Positions 46,035 through 60,724 of a stretch of 64,000 nucleotides of DNA are shown here, one piece after another. The stretch is from the NCBI GenBank assembly GCA_020722005.1, contig DYLP01000009.1:12227-76226 (forward strand), given 5' to 3'. This DNA comes from Melioribacter roseus. GTDB taxonomy: Bacteria > Bacteroidota > Ignavibacteria > Ignavibacteriales > Melioribacteraceae. The number at the start of each line of letters is the position of its first letter. The stretch's first letter is position 1. Under the pieces are notes generated by a model, which saw only the letters and a list, made by a program, of their open reading frames with translations, did no database searches and was not told the DNA's origin. The translations under genes were made by a program, and so were the position numbers.

Positions 46035-46851
46035 AGCTCCCGCAAAAATAAATGTCGGTCTGAGAATCCTTCATAAAAGGAGCGACGGTTATCACAATTT
46101 GCATACGCTCTTTTATCCCGTTAATGATCTTTATGATGAAATTACTATTGAACGACAGGAAGAATTCGAATTTTATACAGATAACGAAGAACTGAATACA
46201 GCAGATAATCTAATCGTAAAAGCTGTTGAATTGCTCGGCGATTACTCGAAGAAAAAAATCGGAGCTAAAATTAAATTAAAGAAAAAAATACCCATGGGAG
46301 CAGGACTCGGCGGCGGCAGCTCGGATGCAGCGGCTGCTTTGATTTCTCTGAATGAAATGTTTGCGCTCAATCTTAGTTATAATGAACTAATTGAACTTGC
46401 TCTTAGATTGGGTTCGGATGTCCCGTTCTTCATAAAAGCAAAACCAGCCATTGGATATTCGAGAGGCGAAGTTCTGAAGCATGTCGATTTTGAAATTGAT
46501 AAACCGATATTAATAGTTAATCCAGGCATTCATATTCCGACAAAAGAAGCTTTTGGAAATATTGTCCCCGTAGATAAGGAACTTGATTATACAAAAGTTA
46601 TTGTTGAGGGTAAACCGAATTACGAAGCGATGAACAGCCTCGTCAACGATTTCGAAGATTATGCATTCAATCGATATCCTGAAATAAAAGAATTAAAAGA
46701 AAAATTTTATCATTATGGCTCTCTGTTTGCGCAGATGTCCGGAAGCGGTTCGACAGTCTACGGTATATTCGCAAGTGAATACGACGCCAAGAAAGTTATT
46801 CGAGATATTTCTCCAGATTACTTTTATCATTTATGTAATTATCCGGACTGA
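46015..46851 (+). CDS. ispE: 4-diphosphocytidyl-2-C-methyl-D-erythritol kinase
   Basis: PAKINVGL, PMGAGLGGGSSDAA, GSDVPFF and MSGSGS. Confidence 0.95.
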   Translation: MKYIEIKAPAKINVGLRILHKRSDGYHNLHTLFYPVNDLYDEITIERQEEFEFYTDNEELNTADNLIVKAVELLGDYSKKKIGAKIKLKKKIPMGAGLGGGSSDAAAALISLNEMFALNLSYNELIELALRLGSDVPFFIKAKPAIGYSRGEVLKHVDFEIDKPILIVNPGIHIPTKEAFGNIVPVDKELDYTKVIVEGKPNYEAMNSLVNDFEDYAFNRYPEIKELKEKFYHYGSLFAQMSGSGSTVYGIFASEYDAKKVIRDISPDYFYHLCNYPD

Positions 46852-48253
46852 TCTGAAAGATATCATAGGACTTCGGCTGGAAATTAAATTCAAGCGAAAC
46901 TTTAAAGCACGTACCGGGCATATCTCCTGCTAATCTTGAAGGGCTTTCTACGAATATATTTCCACCGAGGCGTTCAATAATTTCTTTTACCAATGCCAGA
47001 CCCAGCCCACTTCCTTCGTGTTCGCTCCTTTTTACATTCGAGGCTCTGTAAAACTGTTTAAATATATTAGGCAGGTCTTCTTTCGGAATTCCAATTCCAT
47101 TATCGCATATTTCGACCCATAACTTATCATTACTTTCATTGAGTAGTATTTCAATGATGCCCTCTTTTTTTACGTACTTGACAGAATTTGCAATCAGATT
47201 GGAGAACGCCAGTTCCAAAAGAATAATGTCCGACTTAATAATTTTCTTCTCTTTCCTTAAATCTTTGATTCTCAAATCGATAGCTTTGGCTTTGATTGTT
47301 TCATTTAGCTTGTCAATTAGACCGGAAAGCAATTCCCAAATATCGATTTCTTCTGTAGAGCGGATATCAAGCAATTTTAAACGGGATAATCGTAAAATAT
47401 TATTAAGCATTTGCAAAGTCTCATCCGTTCTTATTTGAGCCCTTTTGAGTTTATCTCTTATTTCGGAATTAATATCTCCAAGGAAGTTATTCAGTATCAA
47501 ATCAATTATTGATTTGATGGCAGTTACAGGAGTTTTGACTTCGTGAATAATTCCAATGGTGTATTTTTGTTTTGCTTTCTCGGCTTCGTCGAGGCGTTGC
47601 AATGTTTCTCGCAATTGCTGCTCACGCTTGTAGAGTTGTCTTACTATATTATTTGCGAGATAGACGCTTATAAAAATCATTGCAGTAAATGTTATTAAAC
47701 TCAGTATATCATAAGCCATCGTATGGGGTATCCTTACGTCGTATAAACCGCTTATTAAATGTGTCTCGATAACACCGAAATTTTGCATTATCGTTAAAAA
47801 GGACAACGTAAAGCATATAATGCATACTATGATATAAACTACGTATGCAGGAAGTATCAAACTCCCGATAATCATATGAAATATGAAAAATAAATAAAGA
47901 GGCGATTCGATGATTCCTGTATAATAAACAAGTACCAATAATGCAATCAGGTCGAGTATCATTTGAATCAAAGAAAGATGGAGACTATTGAAACTCGATA
48001 TATCACATTTAATGTATGCACGTAGTTTATAAAGGATAATATTGTACGAGAAGATTGAAATTGTAACGATAGATATGGCGATTTTCTGAAGTTTACTAAA
48101 TTGGAAGTTCAGTAAAAATTCACCTGCCGTTAGAAAAAGCAGCAGAGAAATTACGGCAAAATAGCGGAGCTTGATAAACCAAAGATTTCGAATACGAATA
48201 GCTCGCCAGAATTCGCCGTAATTCTTAGCCCATTCTGGTATAAGAGCTTTCAT
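46796..48253 (-). CDS. Membrane-bound sensor histidine kinase
   Basis: Multi-TM N-terminus; HEVKTP H-box, NLIANSVKY, DNGIGI and GSGLGL. Confidence 0.9.
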   Translation of the reverse strand: MKALIPEWAKNYGEFWRAIRIRNLWFIKLRYFAVISLLLFLTAGEFLLNFQFSKLQKIAISIVTISIFSYNIILYKLRAYIKCDISSFNSLHLSLIQMILDLIALLVLVYYTGIIESPLYLFFIFHMIIGSLILPAYVVYIIVCIICFTLSFLTIMQNFGVIETHLISGLYDVRIPHTMAYDILSLITFTAMIFISVYLANNIVRQLYKREQQLRETLQRLDEAEKAKQKYTIGIIHEVKTPVTAIKSIIDLILNNFLGDINSEIRDKLKRAQIRTDETLQMLNNILRLSRLKLLDIRSTEEIDIWELLSGLIDKLNETIKAKAIDLRIKDLRKEKKIIKSDIILLELAFSNLIANSVKYVKKEGIIEILLNESNDKLWVEICDNGIGIPKEDLPNIFKQFYRASNVKRSEHEGSGLGLALVKEIIERLGGNIFVESPSRLAGDMPGTCFKVSLEFNFQPKSYDIFQISPDNYINDKSNLEKYLE

Positions 48254-48361: not shown

Positions 48362-50278
48362 TCAAGCAATATATCTTCCCCGCTTTACATAATGAGTATG
48401 GAGTAGTTTATGCGATAAATGGCTGCACGGTCCTTCCCTCAAAAATTCTTTGTAAATCCTTATAACATTTGGATTTTCGTGCGACTTTCTGATTTCGAGG
48501 GATTCGTCTTCTGCATAGATTGCTTCGGCACGCTTCATACGAATTTCTGGAGTTGTTGGAATGGGCTGACCACCGCCGCCGAGACATCCACCCGGACAAG
48601 CCATAAACTCAATAAAATGGCACTCGGAGAATTTACCTCCTGATTTTATGTCTTCCATTATTTTCTTTGCATTTGCAGTTCCGTGTGCTACGGCTACTTT
48701 TAATGTAGCACCTTTCAGCCAGTTCCAATCGGGAATGAAATGTTTTATTAAATCGGGTACTCTTCCCACTTTATCTCCGATCGGAATTTCCATATACTTT
48801 ATGCCTTCAAATCCGCGTAGAGGAATAATGTTTGCTCTTTCGAAAATGTCTTCGGTTTTGTTTCCTGTTACGAATTCAACCACAGATCTTAAAGCCGCTT
48901 CCATTACTCCGCCTGTAGCGCCGAAAATAAGACCAGCGCCCGAAGCTTCGCCGAATGGTGAATCGAAATCGCTCTTAGGCATTTCAGGTAAATTTATTCC
49001 TGCTTCTTTAATCATTCGAGCCATTTCACGCGTCGTCAAACCGTAGTCGACATCTTTGTACCCGCTTGAATTCATTTCCGGTCGATTGCACTCGAACTTT
49101 TTAGCCGAACATGGCATCAATGCTACCGAAACAATATTTGCCGGGTCGATTCCTGCCTGCTGAGCATAAAATGTTTTAATCAATGCACCAAACATTTGCT
49201 GAGGCGACTTTGCCGAGCTTAAATTATCGAGATATTCCGGATAATAATGTTCGATGAATTTAACCCATCCAGGCGAGCAGGATGTAAATTGCGGGAGTGC
49301 AACTTTTCCCTTTTTTACCAGTGCATTGTAAAGACGGAGAATTAATTCAGTACCTTCTTCGATAATCGTGAGGTCTGCTGCAAAGTTAGTATCGAATACT
49401 TTGTCGAACCCAATTCGCCTAAGAGCAGTATTTAATTCTCTGGTCATAGATGTGCCGGCAGGCAGTCCGAATTCTTCGCCAATTGCTGCACGTGGCGACG
49501 GTGCAGTTTGAATGACGACGTGTTTTGTCGGTTCGTCGATTGCTTCCCATATTGCATCCGACGGGTCGTTTGCTCGCAAAGCACCCGTGGGACATCGATT
49601 AATACATTGTCCGCAATTGATACAAATTACATCTGCAAGGGGCTTTTCAAGGAAAGTGCCTATATGAGTTTTATCGCCTCTACCAATAGCTTCTAAAACA
49701 CCGACTTCCTGTAAATCGATACAAGTACGCACGCATCTTTTACAAAGGATGCATTTACTCATATCCCTTACGACTGAATACGATGAATTGTCAACTTCGA
49801 AACGTGGCTTGTCGATGTGTCCGAAAGTATAACTATCAACACCATATTCCTTTGCTAAGTTTTGCAATTCACAATTTCCATTACGAAAACATGTATAGCA
49901 TTCGCCATAATGTTCGCTGAGTAGTAAATCGATAATATGTCGACGGGCTTTGCGTACCATCGGAGATGAAGTTTTGATTTTTATGGGAGTGGTAATCGGA
50001 AAAGAACAGGACGCCTGTAATGTACGCATACCCTCGACTTCTACAACACATATACGACAAACGCCTGCAATACATAAATCATCATGATGACAAAGTGTTG
50101 GTATCGATATCCCGACTTTTTTGCAGGCTTCTAATATTGTAGTACCTAACGGAACGGAAATTTTCTTTTCGTTGATTTCAACTGAAACCGTACCACCAAT
50201 ACCCGTTATGTCCTCTGGTATTGGCACACTGTGTGGCACTTGACTTACGGGTACTCTGAAATCTCCTTTATTTCCCAT
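48362..50278 (-). CDS. hydA: Group A [FeFe]-hydrogenase catalytic subunit, copy 2 (M3 architecture)
   Basis: 2Fe-2S, His-ligated 4Fe-4S and 2x4Fe-4S domains; H-cluster motifs TSCSPGW, MPCSAKKFE and EFMACPGGCLGGGGQP. Start ATG 50278 follows GGAGG. Confidence 0.93.
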   Translation of the reverse strand: MGNKGDFRVPVSQVPHSVPIPEDITGIGGTVSVEINEKKISVPLGTTILEACKKVGISIPTLCHHDDLCIAGVCRICVVEVEGMRTLQASCSFPITTPIKIKTSSPMVRKARRHIIDLLLSEHYGECYTCFRNGNCELQNLAKEYGVDSYTFGHIDKPRFEVDNSSYSVVRDMSKCILCKRCVRTCIDLQEVGVLEAIGRGDKTHIGTFLEKPLADVICINCGQCINRCPTGALRANDPSDAIWEAIDEPTKHVVIQTAPSPRAAIGEEFGLPAGTSMTRELNTALRRIGFDKVFDTNFAADLTIIEEGTELILRLYNALVKKGKVALPQFTSCSPGWVKFIEHYYPEYLDNLSSAKSPQQMFGALIKTFYAQQAGIDPANIVSVALMPCSAKKFECNRPEMNSSGYKDVDYGLTTREMARMIKEAGINLPEMPKSDFDSPFGEASGAGLIFGATGGVMEAALRSVVEFVTGNKTEDIFERANIIPLRGFEGIKYMEIPIGDKVGRVPDLIKHFIPDWNWLKGATLKVAVAHGTANAKKIMEDIKSGGKFSECHFIEFMACPGGCLGGGGQPIPTTPEIRMKRAEAIYAEDESLEIRKSHENPNVIRIYKEFLREGPCSHLSHKLLHTHYVKRGRYIA

Positions 50279-51467
50279 TTCGACCTCCGTTCCCGTTAAA
50301 AATTTCTTCTTTGAAATTTTCCAATATCGATATAAATGCATTGGGACTCGATTGACCAAGACCACACTTAGAAGCTACTTTCATCGTTTGTCCTAATTCT
50401 TTTAATTTATTGATATAGGCAAAAGTATATTCACCTTTTTCTATCATTTCGATCCCTTCTGACAATTTTGTATTGCCTATACGACAAGGTGTGCACTGCC
50501 CGCACGATTCTTCGACGAAAAATTTCATGAAGTTTTTCAATACATGGAGCATATTTCTGTTTTCGCCGAATATCATAATTGATCCGCCTGTAGCTGCATC
50601 TTCATATGCAAGGCTCCGATTGAATTGAGATTTCGGTATACATATGCCGGAGGCTCCACCTACTTGAACGGCTTTAACAGATTTAGCTCCGACTATTTCG
50701 AGCAATTCATTTATTGTCGTTCCCCACGGCAATTCATACACGCCGGGGCGTTCACAATCACCTGATACTGAGAAAAGTTTCGAACCTGTAGATTTGTCGG
50801 TTCCATATTTCTTAAACCATTCTCCTCCTTTCAGAACAATGTGAGGAACAGCTGCAAGAGTTTCGACGTTATTTACAACCGTCGGCTTACCCATGTAACC
50901 AGTATTGACGGGATATGGTGGTCTGTTTCTAGCTTCGCCGCGATTGCCTTCGAGCGATTCAATTAATGCAGTTTCTTCGCCGCAGACATAAGCTCCAGAG
51001 CCAAGTCGGATTGTTATGTCGAAATCAAAGCCATTTTTACCGACTATATTTTTACCGAGTAAGTTATCTTTTCTCATAGCCTCCAGATAATCGTTCAATG
51101 ATTTAAGCATATATTCGTATTCCCCCCGCAGATAAACAATACCCTCTGATGCGCCGATTGTGTAACCTGCTATTACCATGCCGTCAAATACGAGTTCTGG
51201 GTATTCGAGTAATAAAGCCCTATCTTTGAAAGTTCCAGGTTCGCCTTCGTCTGCATTACAGATAATAAATTTTTTATCCGATTTGGCAGCGGCTACCATA
51301 TTCCATTTAGTTGCCGTCGGAAAACCTGCACCGCCCCTGCCTTTTAATTTCGATTCCCTTAGTTCGAAAAGAATTTCTTCGCGCGATTTTTCGAGCGCTT
51401 TTTTAATTGCTTCTCCCCTTTTGTATTCGGAGAAAAGTACTATTCCTTTTCTTTCTTTTTTCTCCAT
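50268..51467 (-). CDS. hydB: Short NuoF-like flavoprotein subunit (HydB, non-bifurcating type)
   Basis: GRGGAGFPT, NADEGEPGTFKDR, GAYVCGEETAL and ESCGQCTPCR; lacks the N-terminal 2Fe-2S and C-terminal 2x4Fe-4S domains. Confidence 0.88.
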   Translation of the reverse strand: MEKKERKGIVLFSEYKRGEAIKKALEKSREEILFELRESKLKGRGGAGFPTATKWNMVAAAKSDKKFIICNADEGEPGTFKDRALLLEYPELVFDGMVIAGYTIGASEGIVYLRGEYEYMLKSLNDYLEAMRKDNLLGKNIVGKNGFDFDITIRLGSGAYVCGEETALIESLEGNRGEARNRPPYPVNTGYMGKPTVVNNVETLAAVPHIVLKGGEWFKKYGTDKSTGSKLFSVSGDCERPGVYELPWGTTINELLEIVGAKSVKAVQVGGASGICIPKSQFNRSLAYEDAATGGSIMIFGENRNMLHVLKNFMKFFVEESCGQCTPCRIGNTKLSEGIEMIEKGEYTFAYINKLKELGQTMKVASKCGLGQSSPNAFISILENFKEEIFNGNGGRNGK

Positions 51468-51475
51468 AGCTCACC

Positions 51476-51949
51476 TCACTTTAATTCGCTTAGTATTTGG
51501 ATAGCTTTCTCAGGTGTCAATTTCGTATATACGTTTTCATTGACAATCATGGCTGGACCCTGGTCGCACATTCCGACGCAATTTGCATATTCAAGTGTAA
51601 ATTTATTGTCTTTTGTAGTTTGCCCGAATTTAATGCCGAGTTCTCTTTCGATGGCTTTTGCAACGGCTTCTTTGCCTTGCATATCGCATGCGATTGTCTG
51701 GCAGAGCCTGACGATATATTTCCCTTTTGGTGTAGTGCTGAGGAATGAATAGAAAGTAATTACACTGTAGATTTCGACGGGATGAATATCGAGTAAACGC
51801 GCTATTTCCTGCTGAGCAAAGTCGGGAATATGCTTATGTTTTCGTTGAATATCCTGTAGTATCGGAAGCAAAGAAGACCTGGAACGACCATATTTTTCGA
51901 CAAGTTGTTCTATCTCTTCGGTCATTGCATTTTTTTCTAAAACCAGCAT
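51476..51949 (-). CDS. hydC: NuoE-like 2Fe-2S subunit (HydC), copy 2
   Basis: CQTIAC...CVGMCDQGP. Confidence 0.88.
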   Translation of the reverse strand: MLVLEKNAMTEEIEQLVEKYGRSRSSLLPILQDIQRKHKHIPDFAQQEIARLLDIHPVEIYSVITFYSFLSTTPKGKYIVRLCQTIACDMQGKEAVAKAIERELGIKFGQTTKDNKFTLEYANCVGMCDQGPAMIVNENVYTKLTPEKAIQILSELK

Positions 51950-51950
51950 T

Positions 51951-52331
51951 TTATTTCACCTCCTTTGCTTTCAACAAATTATTGACCTTATTAATTAGTT
52001 CAGACGGTGAAATCGGTTTTTCCACGAAGTCTTCTACTGGTACCATTTCACTCTTGTCGTATTCCATTCCTGTGGCTTTTGAAACCGAGGTGTACATTAA
52101 AATTGGGGTTTTAATCCCTTCCTTACGAAATTTTTGAGCAAGGTAAAAACCATCATCCGGCTCGTCCATCATAACGTCGAGAATAATCAAATCGGGCTTT
52201 TGTTCTACGACAATTTTGTAGCCGTCGTGAGGATTGTCTGCAGTAACTATGTTATGCCCTTGCGATTTGAGTACAATAGAACTGCTGTCGAGGATGTCCG
52301 GATCATCATCGATGATTGCAATTAGAGCCAT
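51951..52331 (-). CDS. Single-domain response regulator
   Basis: IIDDD, phosphoacceptor ILDVMM, YTS and EKP; no output domain. Confidence 0.9.
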   Translation of the reverse strand: MALIAIIDDDPDILDSSSIVLKSQGHNIVTADNPHDGYKIVVEQKPDLIILDVMMDEPDDGFYLAQKFRKEGIKTPILMYTSVSKATGMEYDKSEMVPVEDFVEKPISPSELINKVNNLLKAKEVK

Positions 52332-52346
52332 ATGTCACTCCTGTAG

Positions 52347-53825
52347 TTATTTTATGTTTATGGGTAAATTGATTATAAATGTAGTCCCTTTACCAAATTC
52401 GGACTCCACTTCAATTTTACCGTGATAAGAGTCGACAATTATTTTGACGATACTCAATCCCAAACCAGTACCGCTTATACCGTGCGTCATTTCATTTTTG
52501 GCTCTGTAAAATTCATTGAAAAGTTTTGTTTTCTCTTCAGGTTTTAATCCGATACCTGTATCACTGATTTTTAGTATAAGGTAATTGTGGGATTTGTATA
52601 GCTCTATCTCAATTTTGCCGTTCGTATTATTGTATTTTATTGCATTACTCAACAGGTTGGTGACAACTCGCGTGATTTCGTTATAATCGGCATTTATTGC
52701 GGGAATGTTTTCATCGAGATGTGTTTCGATCGAGATGTTCTTTTTCTTTATGTCGAGTTCGAAAAACTGGAACGAGTTCTCGATTATCTCGCGAATATCA
52801 ATTTGTTCAATTTCCCTCTGTTTCGTATTTAATTCAATTCTCGAAATATCGAGAAGATCGTTAACAAGGTCGGTCAATCCTTTGAGACGCGTTAGAGAAC
52901 GCTTTAAATAGTCTTCCTGTTTTTCAGGTGATAGTTGTATCGATTTATCAATCATTATATTCAGGTAGCCCTGAACTGCGGCAAGTGGGGCTTTTAGTTC
53001 GTGTGCAACCATCGATACAAACTGCGATTTCAGCAATTCGATTTTTTTGTATTCTGTAATGTTGCTGATAATTAAAACAACACCGGCAAGACTACCGTCA
53101 GAATTTGGAATGGGCGTGGTTGAAAATTCCACTATAAGTTGATTGTTCGGTTTGAGTTCGATTTGCTGTGAATAACTTTTCAAGTGAAATGTTTCTGAGT
53201 AGAAAAGTTTATTTACCGTTTTGACTACTTTCTCCGGAAGAATATTTAGTATTTTACTGCCCAATTCAATTTCTGCGAGGTCGAGAAACTTGAGGGCGGC
53301 ATAGTTATAATAGACAAGCTCGGCATTTTTATTTATTACAAGAATGCCGTCGTTAATCGATTTAATTATTGCATTGAGGCGCGATTTTTCGTTTGCCAAC
53401 TCGAGTAGATTTTCTTCGCGTTCTTTTTTCAGTCTTTCCGATTCAAGTATTAATTTCCGTTGATTGATACCCTGCTCGATTTGATAAATAATTTCCTCAG
53501 GAGAAAAGGGCTTTGGTATATATCCGAAAGCACCCAGGCGTGTCGATTCAATAGCTGTTTCGTAACTTGCAAATGCAGTTGCGATAAAGCATACTGTATT
53601 AGGATGCACGGATTTAATCTCCTTAAGCACGGTTAATCCGTCCACATCCGGCATTTTAAGATCGATTATTGCAACGTCGAATTCTTTGGACTTGCCGAGT
53701 CGTATTCCTTCATTACCATTCGGTGCAGATTCCACGTAATAGCCTTCTTCTTCAAGAAGGCGTTCCGTTCCTAATCGTAATCCGTTTTCGTCGTCAACAA
53801 TTAATATTTTGGATTTTTCATCCAT
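52347..53825 (-). CDS. Cytoplasmic hybrid kinase: REC-PAS-HisKA-HATPase
   Basis: IVDDE/IIDLKMP receiver, PAS-like INDGILVIN...YYN, AHELKAPL, NLLSNAIKY and GTGLGL; no TM. Confidence 0.9.
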   Translation of the reverse strand: MDEKSKILIVDDENGLRLGTERLLEEEGYYVESAPNGNEGIRLGKSKEFDVAIIDLKMPDVDGLTVLKEIKSVHPNTVCFIATAFASYETAIESTRLGAFGYIPKPFSPEEIIYQIEQGINQRKLILESERLKKEREENLLELANEKSRLNAIIKSINDGILVINKNAELVYYNYAALKFLDLAEIELGSKILNILPEKVVKTVNKLFYSETFHLKSYSQQIELKPNNQLIVEFSTTPIPNSDGSLAGVVLIISNITEYKKIELLKSQFVSMVAHELKAPLAAVQGYLNIMIDKSIQLSPEKQEDYLKRSLTRLKGLTDLVNDLLDISRIELNTKQREIEQIDIREIIENSFQFFELDIKKKNISIETHLDENIPAINADYNEITRVVTNLLSNAIKYNNTNGKIEIELYKSHNYLILKISDTGIGLKPEEKTKLFNEFYRAKNEMTHGISGTGLGLSIVKIIVDSYHGKIEVESEFGKGTTFIINLPINIK

Positions 53826-53840
53826 TAAAGAATTTATTCA

Positions 53841-54221
53841 TTACATGTTTTTAAGTTTCGCAATCAATTCATCAATTACAACCGGTTTATTCAAAATCTC
53901 ATCGCACTTCAGCCATTCTTTTTCTTCGTTCGTCGAGGCGCTGAATTTAAATCCCGTTGTATAAGGCGCTGAAGTTATAATAAAAACAGGAACATTTGGA
54001 TTACTCTTTTTAATTCTGTGGCAGAGTATAAAGCCCGAATCCATCTCTTCCATTATCAAGTCGATAATGGCTACATTGGGATTTTCTTTCTGAAAAGCTT
54101 CCCAGCCTTTTGCGCCGTTTTCGGCTGTAATTACTTTATATCCTCTGGATTCTAATAATACTTTGTTCTGTTCGAGTAAATCGATATCGTCATCGACTAA
54201 CAGTATTTTTTTTACGTCCAT
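53841..54221 (-). CDS. Single-domain response regulator
   Basis: LVDDD, IIDLIM, ITS and NKP; no output domain. Confidence 0.9.
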   Translation of the reverse strand: MDVKKILLVDDDIDLLEQNKVLLESRGYKVITAENGAKGWEAFQKENPNVAIIDLIMEEMDSGFILCHRIKKSNPNVPVFIITSAPYTTGFKFSASTNEEKEWLKCDEILNKPVVIDELIAKLKNM

Positions 54222-54237
54222 TTTAACACCATCCTTT

Positions 54238-56220
54238 TTAATTCAATATCATATAATTTTGTTTAATAGGTAAAGTCACTTCAAATATAGAGCCTTCAGT
54301 CAGTTTGCTTTTGACTGTAATATCTCCTCTGTGCATTTTAATTATTCCATAGGTAATTGCGAGTCCTAAACCTGTTCCCTTTCCCATTTTTTTTGTAGTA
54401 AAGAAAGGCGTAAAAATTTTATTGAGATACTCTGGCTTTATTCCACAGCCTGTATCCGTAATGACAACTTTGATTTTGTTATCAGTCCCTGTAATAACAA
54501 CGGAAAGAACTTTATCTTTCGAATTTTCCATCGCTTCGCAAGCATTGATGATAATATTCATAAAGGCTTGTCTGAGCTGGTCGCGATCGCACTGTATTTT
54601 AACACCATTGGTTTTATCTTCAACTTTTAGCTCGATATTTCCAAACTCGCTGCGAATTTTAATCAGCTGAAAAATCGAATCGATAATCGACTTGATTTCA
54701 ATTTCTTCAAGACAAAGGCGTCCCTGTCGCGCGAAGTTCAAAAGGTTCGAAACAATTTTTTTACATCTTTCCGTTTCTTCAATTATTAATTTTAAGTCTT
54801 CGATACTTTGTTTTTCGCCGCCAAATTTTTCTATTTTTTTCTTTAACATGGAAGCATAGATTAATATTGAACCGAGTGGGTTGTTCAGTTCGTGAGCTAC
54901 TCCAGCTGCAAGTTGTCCTATAGAAGCAAGCTTTTCGGCATTAGCAAGTTGCTCCTGCGTTTCCTTTATTTCTTTATTGGCTTGTTCTAATTTGTCGATC
55001 AAATAAGGCAGACACATATCTTCTTCTGCCAGCCCTTTGGCAATTGCAATTGCATATTCCCTGCAAGTTGGATATCCGCAGGCGCCACAGTTGAGTTCAT
55101 CTGACTTGGAAGTTTTATTCGATTTTGCCAATATGAATCGTATTGTTTCTTCCGACGGCGTAGGTCTTCGCTGATTCCTAATTGTAAAATTTCTCGAAAG
55201 GTTAATATCCCGATTGTTGTACAAAGTGCTTTGCCATACTTTTTTGTCGAAAGAATTGATGTCCGATTCGATAAAAGAAATTACTTTTTCTCTGCGGGAG
55301 TAATAATTTAATTCGGAATCGATGGCAGGACCGTTAATGCAGCCTTCGCAAAATAAAATATCGACAAATTTCGATCTGATTTTTCTTCCGGAAATTTCGT
55401 TGAGAATCTCTTCTACTTTATCTTTCCCTTCGACAACAATTATTTCCTTCTCCAGAATGTCGCCGTGAGTGTCGGTAGTTTTCAATAGACCGCCAGTTAA
55501 CGGATAAGCCTTTCCCATGTAAGCATGAGGTGGATCGAAAGACGAACTGTCGAGCGAATTAAGATTTATCTGCTTCCGTTCAAAAATTTGTTTTATCTCT
55601 TTGAATGTAAGTACAGCATCGATTGCGCCTTCAACCTCAGGGTCGAGGTATTCGCTTTTCTTTGCAATGCATGGACCGATAAATACAACTTTAATATGGT
55701 TGCCGTAATTTTTCTTAAGGAATCTTCCCATTGCTATCATCGGAGAAACAACAGTTGCAAGATTATCGGCAATTTCCACAAAGTATTTTGTAATCCAATT
55801 ATAAATTGCCGGACAGGGAGAACTAATTATTGTTTTGCCAGGATTGTTTTCTATGTAAGTTTTATATTTATCACTTATAAGGTCTGCACCGAAAGCTGCT
55901 TCGCTTACATGTTTGAATCCGAGTTGTTTTAGAGCTGTAATGAAATGTTTTTCAACTCCTGGAAACGAAGCCGGAAAAGAAGGTGCTACAATTGCATAAG
56001 TATCGTAAAAAGGAATAAATTCATTCAAAACAATTCCTACATCGTTGAGCACCTGTTTGGCGTTTTGAGAACAAACTTTTACACAATGCCCACAGACAAT
56101 ACATCGTTCTTCAATTACTACTGCCTGTCCGTTAAATACGCGTATTGCTCGAGCAGGACATTCCCTGACGCAGGAATAGCATCTTTTACATCTTTGTCCT
56201 ATGGTTGATACAATTCCCAT
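54238..56220 (-). CDS. Putative sensory [FeFe]-hydrogenase fused to a histidine kinase (group C1-like HydS-HK)
   Basis: 2x4Fe-4S; degenerate H-domain motifs SSPCPA, GPCIAKKSE and LFCEGCINGP; FeS motif NCGACGYPTC...C; then AHELNNPL, NACEA and GTGLGL. Confidence 0.88.
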   Translation of the reverse strand: MGIVSTIGQRCKRCYSCVRECPARAIRVFNGQAVVIEERCIVCGHCVKVCSQNAKQVLNDVGIVLNEFIPFYDTYAIVAPSFPASFPGVEKHFITALKQLGFKHVSEAAFGADLISDKYKTYIENNPGKTIISSPCPAIYNWITKYFVEIADNLATVVSPMIAMGRFLKKNYGNHIKVVFIGPCIAKKSEYLDPEVEGAIDAVLTFKEIKQIFERKQINLNSLDSSSFDPPHAYMGKAYPLTGGLLKTTDTHGDILEKEIIVVEGKDKVEEILNEISGRKIRSKFVDILFCEGCINGPAIDSELNYYSRREKVISFIESDINSFDKKVWQSTLYNNRDINLSRNFTIRNQRRPTPSEETIRFILAKSNKTSKSDELNCGACGYPTCREYAIAIAKGLAEEDMCLPYLIDKLEQANKEIKETQEQLANAEKLASIGQLAAGVAHELNNPLGSILIYASMLKKKIEKFGGEKQSIEDLKLIIEETERCKKIVSNLLNFARQGRLCLEEIEIKSIIDSIFQLIKIRSEFGNIELKVEDKTNGVKIQCDRDQLRQAFMNIIINACEAMENSKDKVLSVVITGTDNKIKVVITDTGCGIKPEYLNKIFTPFFTTKKMGKGTGLGLAITYGIIKMHRGDITVKSKLTEGSIFEVTLPIKQNYMILN

Positions 56221-56224
56221 CAGT

Positions 56225-57955
56225 TCATAATTCTTCTAATATTTTTTTTCTGTTGACGTAAGTAGTATGCAATAACTCGTGTGACAGATGACTATTCGGT
56301 TCTCCTAAAAATTCGTTATAGAGTTTTTTGAGAGATTCATTCTCGTGAGATTTTCTGTGTTTCATTTTTGCATCTATTTCATAGAGAGCGCGGGCGCGTT
56401 TTTCTACTTTTTCTGGTTTTTGATGAATTGGCTGACCGCCACCATTTATGCATCCGCCCGGGCATGCCATTACTTCGATGAAATGATATTTAGATTCGCC
56501 TTTTTCGATTTGCTCTAGAATTCCGCGAACATTTCCGATTCCGTTTACAACCGCAACATTGACAGTTGTGCCGTTAATATCGACTGAATATTCTTTTACT
56601 CCGTCGAAGCCTCGTACGTCTGTCAAATCCACGTTTTCTAATTCTTTACCGGAAAGTTTGAAATATGCAGTTCTCAGAGCCGCTTCCATAACGCCGCCGC
56701 TTGTACCGAAAATTGCGGCTGCCCCGGTCGATTCTCCCAGAGGATCGTCGAACTCGTCGTCCGGTAAATCGTTAAAATCGATGCCCGCAACTTTAAAAAG
56801 ACGAACTAACTCTCTTGTGGTCAGAACGGCATCAACGTCTGGCAATTTTGCTTCGGAAAGTTCTGGTCTGCTGGCTTCGAATTTTTTAACCGTACAAGGC
56901 ATTATCGAAACTACAAAAATGTCTTCCGGATTAAGTCCCATTTTTTTTGCATAATACGATTTAATTATAGCCCCTTCCATTTCATGCGGCGATTTACAGG
57001 TTGAAATATGATCGAGCAAATGCGGATAATTTTGTTCGGCAAATTTAATCCATCCAGGGCAGCAACTTGTGAACATCGGAATAGTTCCGCCATTGCTGAG
57101 TCGATTTATGAGTTCTGTGGCTTCTTCGATAATTGTTAAGTCCGCGCCAAAATTCGTATCAAATACTTTATCGAAACCGAGTCTTCTTAGACCTGTAATT
57201 ATTTTACCAGTCACGTTTGTACCAATTGGAAGATTATATTCTTCACCCAAAGTTGCTCTGACGGCAGGTGCAATCTGAGCAACCGTGAATTTCTTTTTGT
57301 CATTTAATGCGTTTACAACTTCTTTTGCATGGCTTCTTTCACGGAGTGCAGCGGTAGGACAAACAAGTATACATTGCCCACATAGTATACAATCGCTGAC
57401 ATTTAGACCTTTGTTAAATGGAGTTGTTACGTTACTTTTGAAACCTCTGTTTGTAAAATCAATTGCGCCAATTTTCTGAATTTCATTGCATGTTCTTACA
57501 CATCTTCCGCATAGTATACATTTAGCAGGGTCGCGTTCCATCGATGGGCTCGAAATATCGATTGCGTGATTTTTCTTTTCGCCTACGTATCTGTGTTCTC
57601 TAATATTGTAGCGTTCTGATAAGTCCTGGAGTTCGCAATTCTTATTTCTAACACAAATCAGACAATCCTGTGGATGATTTTCAATTAATAGTTCTATAAT
57701 TGTTTTTCTGGCTACTCTTACTCTTGATGAGTTAGTTTGAATTTTCATCCCCTCTTTGACAGGGTAGGCGCAACTCGGAATAAGATTTCTCATTCCATCT
57801 ACTTCTACAACACAAATTCTGCATGCACCGGAAGGGAATAAATCTTTCATATAGCATAAGGTCGGGATATGAATCCCTACGGATTTAGCTGCTTCGAGTA
57901 TAGTCATTCCTTCTTCGGCTTTTACTTTTATATCGTTGATTGTTAATTCTATCAT
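56225..57955 (-). CDS. hydA: Group A3 [FeFe]-hydrogenase catalytic subunit, copy 1
   Basis: M3 Fe-S domains; TSCCPGW, MPCTVKKFE and EVMACPGGCINGGGQP. Confidence 0.95.
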   Translation of the reverse strand: MIELTINDIKVKAEEGMTILEAAKSVGIHIPTLCYMKDLFPSGACRICVVEVDGMRNLIPSCAYPVKEGMKIQTNSSRVRVARKTIIELLIENHPQDCLICVRNKNCELQDLSERYNIREHRYVGEKKNHAIDISSPSMERDPAKCILCGRCVRTCNEIQKIGAIDFTNRGFKSNVTTPFNKGLNVSDCILCGQCILVCPTAALRERSHAKEVVNALNDKKKFTVAQIAPAVRATLGEEYNLPIGTNVTGKIITGLRRLGFDKVFDTNFGADLTIIEEATELINRLSNGGTIPMFTSCCPGWIKFAEQNYPHLLDHISTCKSPHEMEGAIIKSYYAKKMGLNPEDIFVVSIMPCTVKKFEASRPELSEAKLPDVDAVLTTRELVRLFKVAGIDFNDLPDDEFDDPLGESTGAAAIFGTSGGVMEAALRTAYFKLSGKELENVDLTDVRGFDGVKEYSVDINGTTVNVAVVNGIGNVRGILEQIEKGESKYHFIEVMACPGGCINGGGQPIHQKPEKVEKRARALYEIDAKMKHRKSHENESLKKLYNEFLGEPNSHLSHELLHTTYVNRKKILEEL

Positions 57956-57973
57956 ATTAATCTCCGTTAGAAA

Positions 57974-59959
57974 TTAATTTACTTTAATTGCGTCAAAACG
58001 GCACGATTCAAAGCACATACCACATTTGGTACATTTAATCTGAATAATCTGATGCGGTTGTTTCTTTTCGCCTATGATTGCTTCGGCCGGACATTTACGT
58101 AAACAGATACCGCAGCCAGTGCATACTTCGGGATCGATTTCGTATGTTAATAATTCTTTACATACTTTGGCGCGGCACTTCCTTTCAAAAAGATGTTCTT
58201 CGTATTCTTCCCTGAAATAGCGCAAGCCCGACAATACTGGATTAGGTGCACTCTGACCTAATCCGCATAATGACGTATCCTGAATTACTTTAGCGAGTCT
58301 CTGAAGATGAATAATCCCTTTGAAACGCTGAAGTTGTTCGGTTTTATCTCCGTTGGTTCCGTATCGAACAGGAATTCTTTCGATAATTTCGAGCATTCTT
58401 TTTGTCCCTTCACGACATGGAACGCATTTACCGCACGATTCATTTTGAATGAATGTTAGGAAAAATTTTGCTACGTCGACCATACAGGTATCTTCATCCA
58501 TAACAACAAAGCCGCCGGAACCCATCATTGCACCAATTTCCCTTAATGATTCATAATCGACTTCAGTATCGAGGACACAATCAGGTAAACATCCGCCAGA
58601 GGGACCGCCAATTTGAACTGCTTTGAATTTTTTGTTGTTCGGAATACCGCCCCCGATGTCGAAGACTACTTCACGCAGAGTAATTCCCATTGGCACTTCG
58701 ACAAGTCCGCTGTTGACAACTTTACCGCTCAATGCGAAAACTTTTGTGCCTTTGCTTGTCTTTGTGCCAATTGATGCAAACGATGCTGCTCCAATGTTTA
58801 TAATCGAAGGTACATTTGCAAAAGTTTCTACATTGTTGATCACGGTAGGTTTACCCCATAAACCACTATCAACAGGATAAGGAGGTCGGGGACGTGGCAT
58901 ACCTCTTTTCCCTTCGATCGAAGCAATTAATGCAGTTTCTTCGCCACATACAAAAGCGCCTGCCCCTTTCTTAATTTTAAGGTCAAAATCGAAATCGCTA
59001 TTAAGTATATTTTTACCGAGCAGACCGTATTCTCTGCATTTAAGAATTGCCTCTTCAAGTCTTTCAATTGCAAGCGGATATTCTGCACGACAGTAGATAT
59101 ATCCATAAGAAGCACCAATTGCGTAAGCTCCTATAATCATTCCTTCAATAACTCTGTAAGGATCGCTTTCCAGTACAGACCTGTCCATAAAGGCTCCGGG
59201 GTCACCCTCGTCCGCATTACAAATTATATATTTTGTATCCGAATTTTTTTTATGTGCGAGTTCCCACTTAATTCCTGTCGGGAAACCGCCTCCCCCTCTT
59301 CCTCTAAGTCCGCTGGCTTTAATTTCTTCAATTACCTTTTCAGGACTGAGAATTCGAAGTGCTTTATCTAAGGCTTTAAATCCATCGGAAGCTATGTATT
59401 CATCAATAGAATTTGGATTTATAACGCCACAATTTTTGAGAACAACTTTTTTCTGCCTTTTGAAAAAAGGAATTTCATTAATATTTGGAATATGGTCTTT
59501 TGTTTCACCATAGGTACCGAGTAATTTTTTCTTATATATTTTTCTCTCGATTATAGTGGTTTTTATCAGTTCTTTGACGTCTTTGGGTTGAATTTCACAA
59601 TATGAAACCCTGTCTTCACCCGCTAATTTGATATCGACTATTGGTTCTCTGGCACAATATCCAACGCATCCGGTAGGTACAACCAGAGCTTTAATATTTT
59701 CATTGGCGAGTTCTTCTTCGATTGCAGTTTTCACTTTATCTGCACCCGAAGCCAGTCCACAGGTGCCCATACCGATAAATATTACTGGAACTTTTGTTGA
59801 CTCGTAGCGCAGCTTTTCGTTAAGACCTTTATATTTTTCTTTACATTTATCGTCTTTATGACAAAGAGGTCCTTCAAGACAGCAAGCTACAAAAAGCTCG
59901 CATGGTTTACTGGGGGAATGCCAGCACTGGTCACAACATTTTTCAATAAAACTTTTCAT
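57974..59959 (-). CDS. hydB: Long HydB flavoprotein subunit (bifurcating type)
   Basis: Thioredoxin-like 2Fe-2S domain, NADEGDPGAFMDR, GAFVCGEET, ESCGKCVPC and C-terminal 2x4Fe-4S; Cys-rich N-terminal extension. Confidence 0.92.
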   Translation of the reverse strand: MKSFIEKCCDQCWHSPSKPCELFVACCLEGPLCHKDDKCKEKYKGLNEKLRYESTKVPVIFIGMGTCGLASGADKVKTAIEEELANENIKALVVPTGCVGYCAREPIVDIKLAGEDRVSYCEIQPKDVKELIKTTIIERKIYKKKLLGTYGETKDHIPNINEIPFFKRQKKVVLKNCGVINPNSIDEYIASDGFKALDKALRILSPEKVIEEIKASGLRGRGGGGFPTGIKWELAHKKNSDTKYIICNADEGDPGAFMDRSVLESDPYRVIEGMIIGAYAIGASYGYIYCRAEYPLAIERLEEAILKCREYGLLGKNILNSDFDFDLKIKKGAGAFVCGEETALIASIEGKRGMPRPRPPYPVDSGLWGKPTVINNVETFANVPSIINIGAASFASIGTKTSKGTKVFALSGKVVNSGLVEVPMGITLREVVFDIGGGIPNNKKFKAVQIGGPSGGCLPDCVLDTEVDYESLREIGAMMGSGGFVVMDEDTCMVDVAKFFLTFIQNESCGKCVPCREGTKRMLEIIERIPVRYGTNGDKTEQLQRFKGIIHLQRLAKVIQDTSLCGLGQSAPNPVLSGLRYFREEYEEHLFERKCRAKVCKELLTYEIDPEVCTGCGICLRKCPAEAIIGEKKQPHQIIQIKCTKCGMCFESCRFDAIKVN

Positions 59960-60426
59960 TCTATACTCACTGCTTGTTCTTGTTTTTTGTACTTATTGAG
60001 AATTTTAGGTATTTCTTTAACGGTCACTCGTCCATAATAATCGTCGTTAATATTAATAACCGGAGCGATACTACAGGCTCCCATACATGCTACAGTTTCG
60101 AGTGTAAATAATTTATCTCGTGTAGTTTGACCCGCGCAAATGCCCAGTTCGTTTTCTAGTGCTGTTAAAATATTAGCTGAATTTTTAACATGGCACGCTG
60201 TTCCCCGGCAAACTCGAATAATATTCTTGCCAAGTGGTGTTAAACGAAACTGATTGTAAAATGTAGCCACGCCGTAAACGCCGCTCACAGACATTCCGAT
60301 GTGGTCGGCAACCTTACGTATTTCTTCCTCAGGTAAATAGCCATAAACTTCCTGGAGATCCTGAAGCATAGCTATTAAATTACTACGGTCATTTTTGGGA
60401 TATTTCTGAAAAATATTGCCTTCCAT
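59956..60426 (-). CDS. hydC: NuoE-like 2Fe-2S subunit (HydC), copy 1
   Basis: VCRGTACHV...CMGACSIAP. Confidence 0.92.
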   Translation of the reverse strand: MEGNIFQKYPKNDRSNLIAMLQDLQEVYGYLPEEEIRKVADHIGMSVSGVYGVATFYNQFRLTPLGKNIIRVCRGTACHVKNSANILTALENELGICAGQTTRDKLFTLETVACMGACSIAPVININDDYYGRVTVKEIPKILNKYKKQEQAVSIE

Positions 60427-60724
60427 GTTATTTTTCTCTTATTTATTTATGTTATTAATTATACACAGATAATATGCCAGAATTTAAGGACAGGAATAAC
60501 TTATTTAACTGTGAAAAATGAGGTTGGTATCCGTTTTTTTACTTCAAACTTTCCTAAGTGTGAGAAAAGTAAAATATGAATTCTAAATTTATAAAGTATA
60601 TTGAGTCTCTTTATGCTATTACATTTCTTTTATTTTGTGCAAAATAATTATGAGAAATAATAATTTTAAAAAATCGGGTTTAAGTTTCGATCTCTGAGCT
60701 GTGAAATTAAATGTTATGAGAGTT

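What the first reader, a model, noticed from the sequence alone, without database searches (positions are those of the whole stretch)
54238..56220. Sensory [FeFe]-hydrogenase domain fused directly to an NtrB-type kinase, with no PAS domain and a shortened third motif
Seen: motif 1 is SSPCPA (Pro at the proton-transfer Cys position), motif 2 is GPCIAKKSE (Met to Gly) and motif 3 is LFCEGC (CxxC rather than CxxxC). These are followed by a 4-Cys FeS domain, a coiled coil and HisKA/HATPase; there is no TM. Knowledge: such substitutions typify low-activity group C sensors such as Thermotoga HydS, which has a PAS domain but no kinase. Inference: the H-cluster redox state directly gates autophosphorylation. 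The CxxC spacing leaves open that it binds only [4Fe-4S] and senses redox or O2 rather than H2.
Basis: partly seen in the sequence, partly recalled or inferred. Interest (0 to 1): 0.8.

Follow-up and report, generated by a model that had tools for sequence, protein, structure and literature searches.

The report
Hydrogenase-domain sensor kinase, known uncharacterised family
This gene encodes a soluble signalling kinase whose sensor part is a modified iron-iron hydrogenase; it sits between two hydrogenase gene sets, belongs to a widespread family already catalogued but never tested, and could show directly whether such proteins sense hydrogen.

Summary
Window 54238..56220 (- strand) encodes a 660-aa soluble protein. 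Its domains run 2x[4Fe-4S] ferredoxin, [FeFe]-hydrogenase H-domain (P1 SSPCPA, P2 GPCIAKKSE, P3 LFCEGC), Cx2Cx4Cx16C FeS domain, helical linker, then HisKA/HATPase_c. It has no PAS domain and no TM segment.

It is not unusual. The organism is a Melioribacter relative (Ignavibacteriota). At least 579 species genomes encode a relative. In 48 of the 80 best loci the same ten-gene layout recurs: HydCBA, sensor kinase, REC, REC-HK, REC, HydCBA. Direct H-domain-to-kinase fusions also occur in MAGs labelled as other phyla, and the literature already notes them (HydDB group C1; Elusimicrobia and Hydrogenedentota surveys). None has been studied biochemically in the papers I could search.

Three points are, as far as I could find, not in print:
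- The one-residue-shorter P3 (CxGC) marks a clade. All 79 short-P3 representatives fall in one 86-row clade that also holds the kinase and sigma54-activator fusions.
- The H-cluster framework residues are as conserved there as in the PAS-type clade.
- The spacing from the last FeS cysteine to the phospho-histidine is 33, 40, 47, 54 or 68 residues (29 of 31 equal 5 mod 7). That implies a phase-locked coiled coil.

H2 sensing remains inferred. Verdict: new member of a known kind, moderate interest.

The parts
54238..56220 (-). Whole gene: HydS-like sensor histidine kinase, 660 aa
   Evidence: ORF; domain hits; 93% and 90% identical to proteins of Melioribacter sp. OK-6-Me and Ez-97
56059..56199 (-). 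N-terminal 2x[4Fe-4S] ferredoxin-like domain (C11/14/17/21 and C40/43/46/50)
   Evidence: Pfam Fer4_10, Fer4_9 and Fer4_7; all eight Cys invariant in 147 homologues
55327..56001 (-). [FeFe]-hydrogenase H-domain (PF02906), residues 74-298
   Evidence: E 8e-53 over the full profile; AF2 pLDDT about 80-95; Foldseek matches T. kivui HydA, CpI, CbA5H and TmHydABC
55807..55824 (-). P1 motif SSPCPA: C136 is the [4Fe-4S]H ligand, P135 sits at the proton-relay Cys position
   Evidence: C136 invariant; position 135 is P, A or S in close homologues
55651..55677 (-). P2 motif GPCIAKKSE: G182 replaces Met353; C184, K187 and E190 are kept
55339..55356 (-). P3 motif LFCEGC: C291 and C294 spaced CxxC, one residue shorter than the canonical CxxGC
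   Evidence: marks a clade
55006..55095 (-). C-terminal FeS domain (PF04060), Cx2Cx4Cx16C (C378/381/386/403)
   Evidence: all four Cys invariant; same motif as in HydS of groups C and D (PMC8163306)
54895..55014 (-). Helical linker from C403 to H443 (40 residues), proposed signalling coiled coil
   Evidence: AF2 helices 403-424 and 430-465; across representatives the spacing is 33, 40, 47, 54 or 68, and 29 of 31 equal 5 mod 7
54724..54918 (-). HisKA (DHp) domain with phospho-acceptor H443 in HELNNP
   Evidence: H443, E444, N446, N447 and P448 are present in 146 of 147 homologues, the one exception being a gap; best structural match is ZraS 9jfj
54262..54588 (-). HATPase_c catalytic domain; conserved residues at the expected N, G1 and G2 box positions
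   Evidence: invariant N555, N559, D589, G591, G593, G613, G615, T616, G617, L618, G619
56225..60426 (-). Upstream hydC1-hydB1(661 aa)-hydA1, a group A trimeric [FeFe] hydrogenase
   Evidence: gaps of -4, 18 and 4 nt
51951..54221 (-). Downstream REC (126 aa), REC-PAS-HisKA-HATPase (492 aa), REC (126 aa)
   Evidence: gaps of 15-16 nt; wherever the contig extends far enough, the locus has REC1 directly after the sensor (78 of 80)
48362..51949 (-). Second hydC2-hydB2(399 aa)-hydA2 set; HydA2 has P1 TSCSPGW

Best explanation
The gene encodes a cytoplasmic, probably dimeric, sensor histidine kinase. Its input module is a HydS-type (group C-like) [FeFe]-hydrogenase: two N-terminal [4Fe-4S] clusters, an H-domain that lacks the fast proton-relay residues, and a C-terminal [4Fe-4S] domain. 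Shown: the domain order, the conserved cluster ligands, a kinase core with all expected conserved residues, and operon membership between two HydABC hydrogenases. Inferred: the H-domain carries a complete H-cluster and reacts slowly with H2. The resulting change in the H-domain/F-domain/C-terminal-domain assembly passes mechanically from the C-terminal FeS domain through a phase-locked coiled coil into the DHp helix that carries H443, and switches the kinase/phosphatase balance. The phosphoryl group then goes to the adjacent single-domain receiver, and possibly to the REC-PAS-kinase and the second receiver. These adjust expression or activity of the two flanking hydrogenases according to H2 level.
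For: Architecture and motifs. All 16 cluster cysteines, the H-box and the ATP-binding residues are invariant in close homologues. Residues that frame the H-cluster in CpI (my mapping from knowledge: P231, S232, C300, P301, S323, P324, P354, C355, K358, E361, C499, G502, C503) are as conserved in the short-P3 clade as in the PAS-size-tail CxxxC clade, where I place TmHydS by architecture only. TmHydS binds a full H-cluster according to Chongdar 2018, which I know only as cited in PMC8163306. Genes in the cluster are 18 nt apart or less. The ten-gene order is intact in 48 of 80 Ignavibacteriota loci, and REC1 directly follows the sensor wherever the contig extends. The linker is helical in AF2. 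The Cys-to-His spacing is quantised in heptads, 29 of 31 equal to 5 mod 7 across at least five length classes. AF2 homodimers of TamHydS lie parallel along the C-terminal helix (PMC13104023). Group C genes sit next to group A3 genes in other phyla as well (PMC11406978; 10.1101/765248).
Against: No experiment exists for any kinase-fused member in the papers I could search. The P3 spacing differs from every characterised H-cluster site, so [2Fe] binding is unproven. In TamHydS the C-terminal cluster does not change redox state under H2 (PMC13104023), so any signal must be conformational or come by another route. The operon has no DNA-binding output, and no sigma54 or Rex site lies upstream of hydC1, so what is regulated is unknown. 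The AF2 linker and Fer4 regions have pLDDT below 50.
Confidence: 0.6

Rival explanations
1. It is a redox-pool sensor with no [2Fe] subcluster. The H-domain holds only a [4Fe-4S] cubane on C136, C184, C291 and C294. Together with the three other cubanes it reports the reduction state of ferredoxin or the hydrogenase electron chain to the kinase.
For: The CxxC P3 spacing is typical of plain [4Fe-4S] sites and differs from every characterised H-cluster. A survey of Hydrogenedentota could hardly find canonical P1-P3 motifs in group C1 proteins and doubted H2 sensing (PMC11406978). From my own knowledge, eukaryotic Nar1/NARFL proteins keep the H-domain cysteines without a 2Fe site.
Against: Residues whose known role is to hold the 2Fe ligands (the K358, P231/S232 and S323/P324 equivalents) stay as conserved as in the PAS-type clade. 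The full Pfam H-domain profile is matched. The gene always sits next to true hydrogenases, whose maturases would be on hand.
Confidence: 0.22
2. It is an oxygen or oxidant sensor. O2-labile clusters in the H-domain or F-domain break down on exposure to air and switch the kinase, shutting off the O2-sensitive hydrogenases in this facultative anaerobe, in the manner of NreB or FNR.
For: Melioribacter roseus grows both aerobically and anaerobically (PMC3534657), and [FeFe] hydrogenases are O2-sensitive. TamHydS reacts quickly with O2 to a defined Hair state (PMC8163306).
Against: The family is found in MAGs labelled Bacteroidota, Armatimonadota, Deltaproteobacteria and Bacillota, and in named Proteinivorax species. 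I read most of these as anaerobic lineages, from my own knowledge, not a test. Nothing in the sequence points specifically to O2. Conservation of the whole H-cluster framework is more than a labile cubane would need.
Confidence: 0.1
3. It is mainly a catalytic or structural fourth subunit of the neighbouring HydABC complex, and the kinase part is secondary or inactive.
For: The gene starts 4 nt after hydA1. Group C3 proteins were treated as a 'T subunit' of BfuABC clusters in PMC11406978.
Against: The H-box His and the conserved ATP-binding residues are intact. A receiver gene directly follows wherever the contig extends. The proton-relay residues are replaced (C299 to P, E279 to Y, E282 to Y), which in TmHydS and TamHydS goes with low turnover (PMC8163306).
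Confidence: 0.05

Closest known systems
Thermotoga maritima HydS (group C, M2f putative sensory [FeFe] hydrogenase)
   Same: N-terminal 2x[4Fe-4S]; H-domain with the proton-relay Cys lost and Met353 changed to Gly; C-terminal Cx2Cx4Cx16C cluster; encoded beside a trimeric group A hydrogenase (PMC8163306)
   Different: HydS ends in a PAS domain and has no kinase. Representatives with a PAS-size tail have a CxxxC P3, and this protein has CxxC. The Met497 position is Leu here and Ser in TmHydS.
Thermoanaerobacter mathranii TamHydS (group D, M2e)
   Same: No PAS domain; same F-domain, H-domain and C-terminal cluster layout; Leu at the Met497 position; a kinase-like ATPase gene nearby (PMC8163306, PMC13104023)
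   Different: TamHydS has no fused output domain and has Ser/Thr at the Met353 position. Here the kinase is fused and that position is Gly.
Kinase-fused group C [FeFe] hydrogenases noted in Elusimicrobia and Hydrogenedentota genome surveys; HydDB group C1 'histidine kinase-linked'
   Same: An H-domain fused to, or adjacent to, a HisKA/HATPase kinase in place of PAS, next to trimeric group A hydrogenases. The Elusimicrobia paper says theirs are related to those of Ignavibacterium album (10.1101/765248; PMC11406978; PMC5037454).
   Different: None in kind; this is the Melioribacter member. Those papers do not describe the P3 shortening as a clade marker or the heptad-locked linker. I could not run the HydDB classifier.
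[NiFe] regulatory hydrogenase HoxBC with the kinase HoxJ (Ralstonia eutropha), HydDB [NiFe] group 2b
   Same: The same logic: a slow hydrogenase used as an H2 sensor that drives a two-component system controlling hydrogenase genes (PMC5037454, PMC5665086)
   Different: An unrelated metal site and fold. Sensor and kinase are separate proteins joined through a PAS-like domain of HoxJ, and the output is a DNA-binding regulator.
ZraS / AtoS-type HisKA kinases
   Same: Best sequence and structure matches for residues about 415-655 (32% identity to ZraS 9jfj)
   Different: Those are membrane sensors paired with NtrC-type regulators. This one is soluble and is followed by a single-domain receiver. 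All NCBIfam scores are far below the equivalog cut-offs.

Membership tests
[FeFe]-hydrogenase H-domain (Pfam PF02906) | Profile match above the gathering score over the whole domain | tested here: met
   180 bits against a cut-off of 22.1, profile positions 3-245 of 245
[FeFe]-hydrogenase H-domain (Pfam PF02906) | Four H-cluster cysteines (CpI C300, C355, C499, C503) | tested here: met
   C136, C184, C291 and C294; invariant in 147 close homologues. Across the 150 representatives C291 is invariant and the other three are at least 90% conserved.
[FeFe]-hydrogenase H-domain (Pfam PF02906) | Canonical signatures TSCCPxW, MPCxxKxxE and ExMxCxxGCxxG | tested here: not met
   SSPCPA, GPCIAKKSE and DILFCEGCINGP: the relay Cys is lost, Met is Gly, and P3 is one residue shorter
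[FeFe]-hydrogenase H-domain (Pfam PF02906) | Binds the [2Fe] subcluster and turns over H2 | not testable with these tools
   Needs maturation, FTIR/EPR and activity assays
Group C (M2f) putative sensory [FeFe] hydrogenase, HydS type | N-terminal 2x[4Fe-4S], loss of C299, C-terminal Cx2Cx4Cx16C cluster | tested here: met
   definition from PMC8163306
Group C (M2f) putative sensory [FeFe] hydrogenase, HydS type | C-terminal PAS domain | tested here: not met
   No PAS hit at E <= 0.01; residues 299-505 are all helical in the AF2 model
HydDB [FeFe] group C1 'histidine kinase-linked' | Assignment by the HydDB classifier | not testable with these tools
   HydDB is not available here. The kinase link itself is met, by fusion.
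Group D (M2e) [FeFe] hydrogenase, TamHydS type | No PAS; Ser/Thr at the Met353 position; no fused output domain | tested here: not met
   PAS is absent, but position 182 is Gly (77 of 81 in the short-P3 clade) and a kinase is fused
HisKA-family sensor histidine kinase | HisKA and HATPase_c above the gathering scores; H-box His; conserved ATP-binding residues | tested here: met
   52.5 bits against 26.9 and 86.3 against 26.4; H443 in HELNNP; invariant N555, N559, D589, G591, G593, G613, G615, T616, G617, L618, G619 at the expected N, G1 and G2 box positions
NtrB (NR-II) equivalog | NCBIfam NF008293 score at or above 240 | tested here: not met
   96.4 bits. AtoS (217 against 646) and ZraS (187 against 479) score higher but also fall below their cut-offs.

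The most novel reading that the evidence does not exclude
The effector-fused, short-P3 (CxGC) proteins form a mechanistically distinct sensor class. The one-residue deletion between the two P3 cysteines would reshape the cubane/[2Fe] junction, or abolish [2Fe] binding. The domain would then report something other than H2 turnover, for example ferredoxin-pool potential or O2. It would pass that signal by rigid-body motion of the C-terminal FeS domain through a heptad-locked coiled coil straight into kinases or sigma54 activators. If so, the 'H2 sensor' label now applied to this part of group C would be wrong.
Probability: 0.2. Interest if true: 0.75.

Novelty: new member of a known kind. Interest (0 to 1): 0.45.

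Why it matters
Whether group C and D [FeFe] hydrogenases really sense H2, and how the signal leaves the protein, is still open. Papers from 2020 to 2026 still call them 'putative sensory', and they found the C-terminal cluster unresponsive to H2. In PAS-only HydS proteins there is no activity to read out. In this protein the presumed sensor is wired directly to a kinase, so autophosphorylation and transfer to the adjacent receiver give a simple biochemical read-out. Its closest relatives are cultivated, moderately thermophilic Melioribacter strains. The heptad-locked linker gives a specific hypothesis that can be tested by mutation. Knowing how bacteria measure H2 bears on fermentation, syntrophy and engineered H2 production.

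Tried and rejected
- MAFFT on the sensor and the two HydA proteins aligned P3 wrongly, pairing the PF04060 cysteines with MACPGGC. I corrected this from the end of the Pfam match and from the family alignments.
- My first regex put 'CCxGC' sequences in the CxxxC class. I reclassified them.
With the closer alignment A5 it returned only Ignavibacteriota among the best 80, so spread across phyla rests on the unnamed representatives and ten cluster look-ups.
- The Greening 2016 ISME J paper is not held.
- Literature searches for an experiment on a kinase-fused [FeFe] sensor found none.
- A hidden PAS domain is ruled out, and so is a TM segment.
- I looked for a sigma54 promoter or a Rex box upstream of hydC1. 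Counts across the window are at chance level and no hit lies in 60427-60724.
- The PDB holds no HydS structure.
- AF2 coordinates cannot be read, so I could not measure the Cys geometry.
- Co-occurrence with HydEFG and extra copies in the genome: the genome search and the fetch from genomes were shut (note).
Full report
**1. What is there.**
The minus strand of 54238..56220 holds a 660-aa ORF. It starts at an ATG 4 nt after the stop of an upstream hydA gene. Pfam finds these domains:
- a two-cluster ferredoxin domain at residues 8-54;
- the [FeFe]-hydrogenase H-domain at 74-298 (E 8e-53, the whole 245-position profile);
- the small PF04060 FeS domain at 376-405;
- HisKA at 435-499;
- HATPase_c at 545-653.

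No PAS family is hit. The cysteines fall into four groups:
- C11/14/17/21 and C40/43/46/50, two ferredoxin-type sites;
- C136, C184, C291 and C294, the H-cluster positions;
- C378/381/386/403, spaced Cx2Cx4Cx16C, the motif reported for the C-terminal cluster of HydS proteins (PMC8163306).

The neighbouring catalytic HydA1 has TSCCPGW, MPCTVKK and MACPGGC.

The most hydrophobic 19-residue window averages 1.23, so there is no membrane segment. The AF2 model is confident for the H-domain (pLDDT about 80-95). It shows only helices from residue 299 to 505 (403-424, 430-465 with H443, 470-499), followed by the ATP-binding domain. A PAS fold cannot be hidden there. Foldseek matches the two halves to ZraS-type kinases and to HydA, CpI and CbA5H.

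'NtrB-type' is only loosely right. AtoS and ZraS models score best, and all are far below their curated cut-offs.

**2. Context.**
Ten co-oriented genes lie 18 nt apart or less:
- hydC1, hydB1 (661 aa, with an extra ferredoxin domain) and hydA1;
- this gene;
- a REC of 126 aa, a REC-PAS-HisKA-HATPase protein of 492 aa, and a second REC of 126 aa;
- hydC2, hydB2 (399 aa) and hydA2.

The closest named relatives are in Melioribacter sp. OK-6-Me (93%) and Ez-97 (90%). The best 80 are essentially all Ignavibacteriota; a few bins carry other labels, probably from mis-binning. In 48 of the 80 loci the full ten-gene order is intact. Most of the rest are cut by contig ends or have the second hyd set elsewhere. 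Wherever the contig extends far enough, REC1 directly follows the sensor (78 of 80 loci).

The M. roseus genome paper lists the two flanking hydrogenases (Mros2480-2482, Mros2487-2488). It does not mention the four signalling genes between them (PMC3534657).

**3. How common the architecture is.**
An exhaustive search with residues 1-410 found 4887 50%-identity representatives at E <= 1e-3 and 973 at E <= 1e-30. I classified the best 150 representatives by P3 motif:
- 72 have CxGC.
- 9 have CCxGC.
- 67 have CxGGC (CxxxC).
- 2 fit none of these.

Pfam scans were run on an earlier split of the same set, in which the CCxGC rows were counted with CxxxC. In the 72-row CxxC group there are 39 HATPase_c, 38 HisKA, 13 sigma54-interaction domains with HTH_8, and about 10 PAS. 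In the 76-row group there are about 42 PAS, 5 kinases and 2 sigma54 domains. In the final classification five of the six kinase-fused rows of that group are CCxGC.

I built a tree from H-domain columns with the P3 columns removed. It puts all 79 short-P3 rows in one 86-row clade (SH-like support 90), with five apparent reversions. The other 62 rows are all CxxxC, nearly all with a PAS-size tail. On this tree P3 length changes 5-7 times and the output domain 34 times. The shortened third motif is therefore an old clade marker tied to direct effector fusions, not a quirk of this protein.

Ten cluster look-ups show direct kinase fusions in MAGs labelled Bacteroidota, Armatimonadota and Deltaproteobacteria. 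They show sigma54 fusions in Bacillota, for example in Proteinivorax.

**4. What the literature already says.**
- HydDB defines [FeFe] group C1 as 'histidine kinase-linked (putative)' (PMC5037454).
- A Hydrogenedentota survey found HATPase_c in group C1 proteins. It could hardly recognise P1-P3 with the standard signatures and so doubted H2 sensing (PMC11406978).
- Only the PAS-type TmHydS and the output-less TamHydS have been characterised. The field still writes 'putative sensory' (PMC8163306, PMC8924675, PMC13104023).
- My searches found no experiment on a kinase-fused member.

**5. Does it hold an H-cluster?**
This cannot be decided here, but the sequence leans towards yes. Mapped to CpI from my own knowledge of the family, the framework residues are P231, S232, C300, P301, S323, P324, P354, C355, K358, E361, C499, G502 and C503. 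They are as conserved in the short-P3 clade as in the CxxxC clade. TmHydS, which I place in the CxxxC clade by architecture only, is reported to bind a complete H-cluster (Chongdar 2018, known to me only as cited in PMC8163306).

The proton-relay residues are gone: C299 to P, E279 to Y, E282 to Y. The C299 position varies freely, with P 97, A 43 and S 7 among close homologues. That fits a slow, non-catalytic site.

A caveat from my own knowledge: eukaryotic Nar1-type proteins also keep the cysteines and the lysine without a 2Fe site. Conservation is therefore supportive, not decisive.

**6. How the signal could travel.**
In the direct kinase fusions I measured the number of residues from the last FeS-domain cysteine to the phospho-histidine:

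| Spacing (residues) | Representatives |
|---|---|
| 33 | 3 |
| 40 (this protein) | 6 |
| 47 | 15 |
| 54 | 4 |
| 68 | 1 |
| 48 and 49 (outliers) | 1 each |

So 29 of 31 equal 5 mod 7, and the length classes are scattered over the tree. Fusions with an inserted PAS have spacings of 141-396. Length changes in whole heptads are what a continuous coiled coil with a fixed register requires. The segment is helical in the AF2 model. Published AF2 dimers of TamHydS lie parallel along the C-terminal helix (PMC13104023).

I therefore propose that the C-terminal FeS domain is the mechanical hinge that couples the hydrogenase module to the DHp helices. Since that cluster's redox state does not respond to H2 in TamHydS (PMC13104023), the signal is more likely conformational than a redox change of that cluster.

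The H-box reads H-E-L-N-N-P. It contains the H-E-x-x-N pattern linked with phosphatase activity in HisKA kinases (my knowledge), so the protein may act as both kinase and phosphatase.

**7. Output.**
The operon contains no DNA-binding protein. No sigma54 promoter or Rex box lies upstream of hydC1 at the thresholds I used. What the receivers act on is unknown. The conserved position between two hydrogenase sets makes control of those enzymes the obvious guess.

**8. Verdict.**
This is the Melioribacter member of a large family that is already catalogued and biochemically untouched.
- Its value is practical: a cultivated source and a built-in kinase read-out for an open question.
- The clade-wide P3 deletion, the equal conservation of the H-cluster framework and the heptad-locked linker are, as far as I could find, not in print.

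**Limits.** I therefore could not check co-transcription, maturase co-occurrence or extra copies in the genome.

Noticed in passing
window 48362-50278 (- strand), HydA2: The second catalytic subunit has P1 TSCSPGW instead of TSCCPGW. Ser sits at the position of the [4Fe-4S]H ligand Cys (CpI C300 by my mapping), while the proton-relay Cys is kept. Of 78 related loci with a P1 match, 58 carry TSCSPGW. PMC11406978 notes Ser at this position in several Hydrogenedentota BfuA subtypes, without biochemistry. The likely true start is the ATG at 50278 (638 aa), overlapping hydB2 by 11 nt as in L002.
   Followed up: partly
representatives P0177, P0183, P0200 and others (not in the window): About 14 of the 150 representatives fuse the same F-domain, H-domain and FeS-domain sensor directly to a sigma54 AAA+ activator with an HTH_8 domain. 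No separate receiver domain showed among the commonest Pfam hits, though I did not scan these proteins one by one. One example is Proteinivorax tanatarense WP_350343312.1. This would be a one-component version of the same sensor.
   Followed up: partly
window 51951-54221 (- strand): The signalling genes after the sensor are a REC, a REC-PAS-kinase and a second REC, with no HPt and no DNA-binding domain. The set is conserved in order across Ignavibacteriota loci. The output is unknown.
   Followed up: partly
window 50268-51467 and 57974-59959 (- strand): The two HydB subunits differ. The 661-aa one has an N-terminal extension and a C-terminal two-cluster ferredoxin domain. The 399-aa one has only the Nuo51 FMN and 4Fe-4S regions. 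The two hydrogenases may therefore differ in whether they bifurcate electrons.
   Followed up: no
window 46796-48253 (- strand): A further HisKA/HATPase kinase (485 aa, with about 230 N-terminal residues that match no Pfam family) lies just downstream of hydA2. It is not at that position in loci L001 or L002.
   Followed up: no
loci L052 and L060 (and L047): Contigs labelled Acidobacteriota, Syntrophomonadaceae and Chloroflexia carry the same operon. In L060 (same contig as L002) even the same flanking genes are present (AIRC, DUF2807, AAA-TPR), as in the Melioribacter window. This suggests mis-binned Ignavibacteriota contigs.
   Followed up: no
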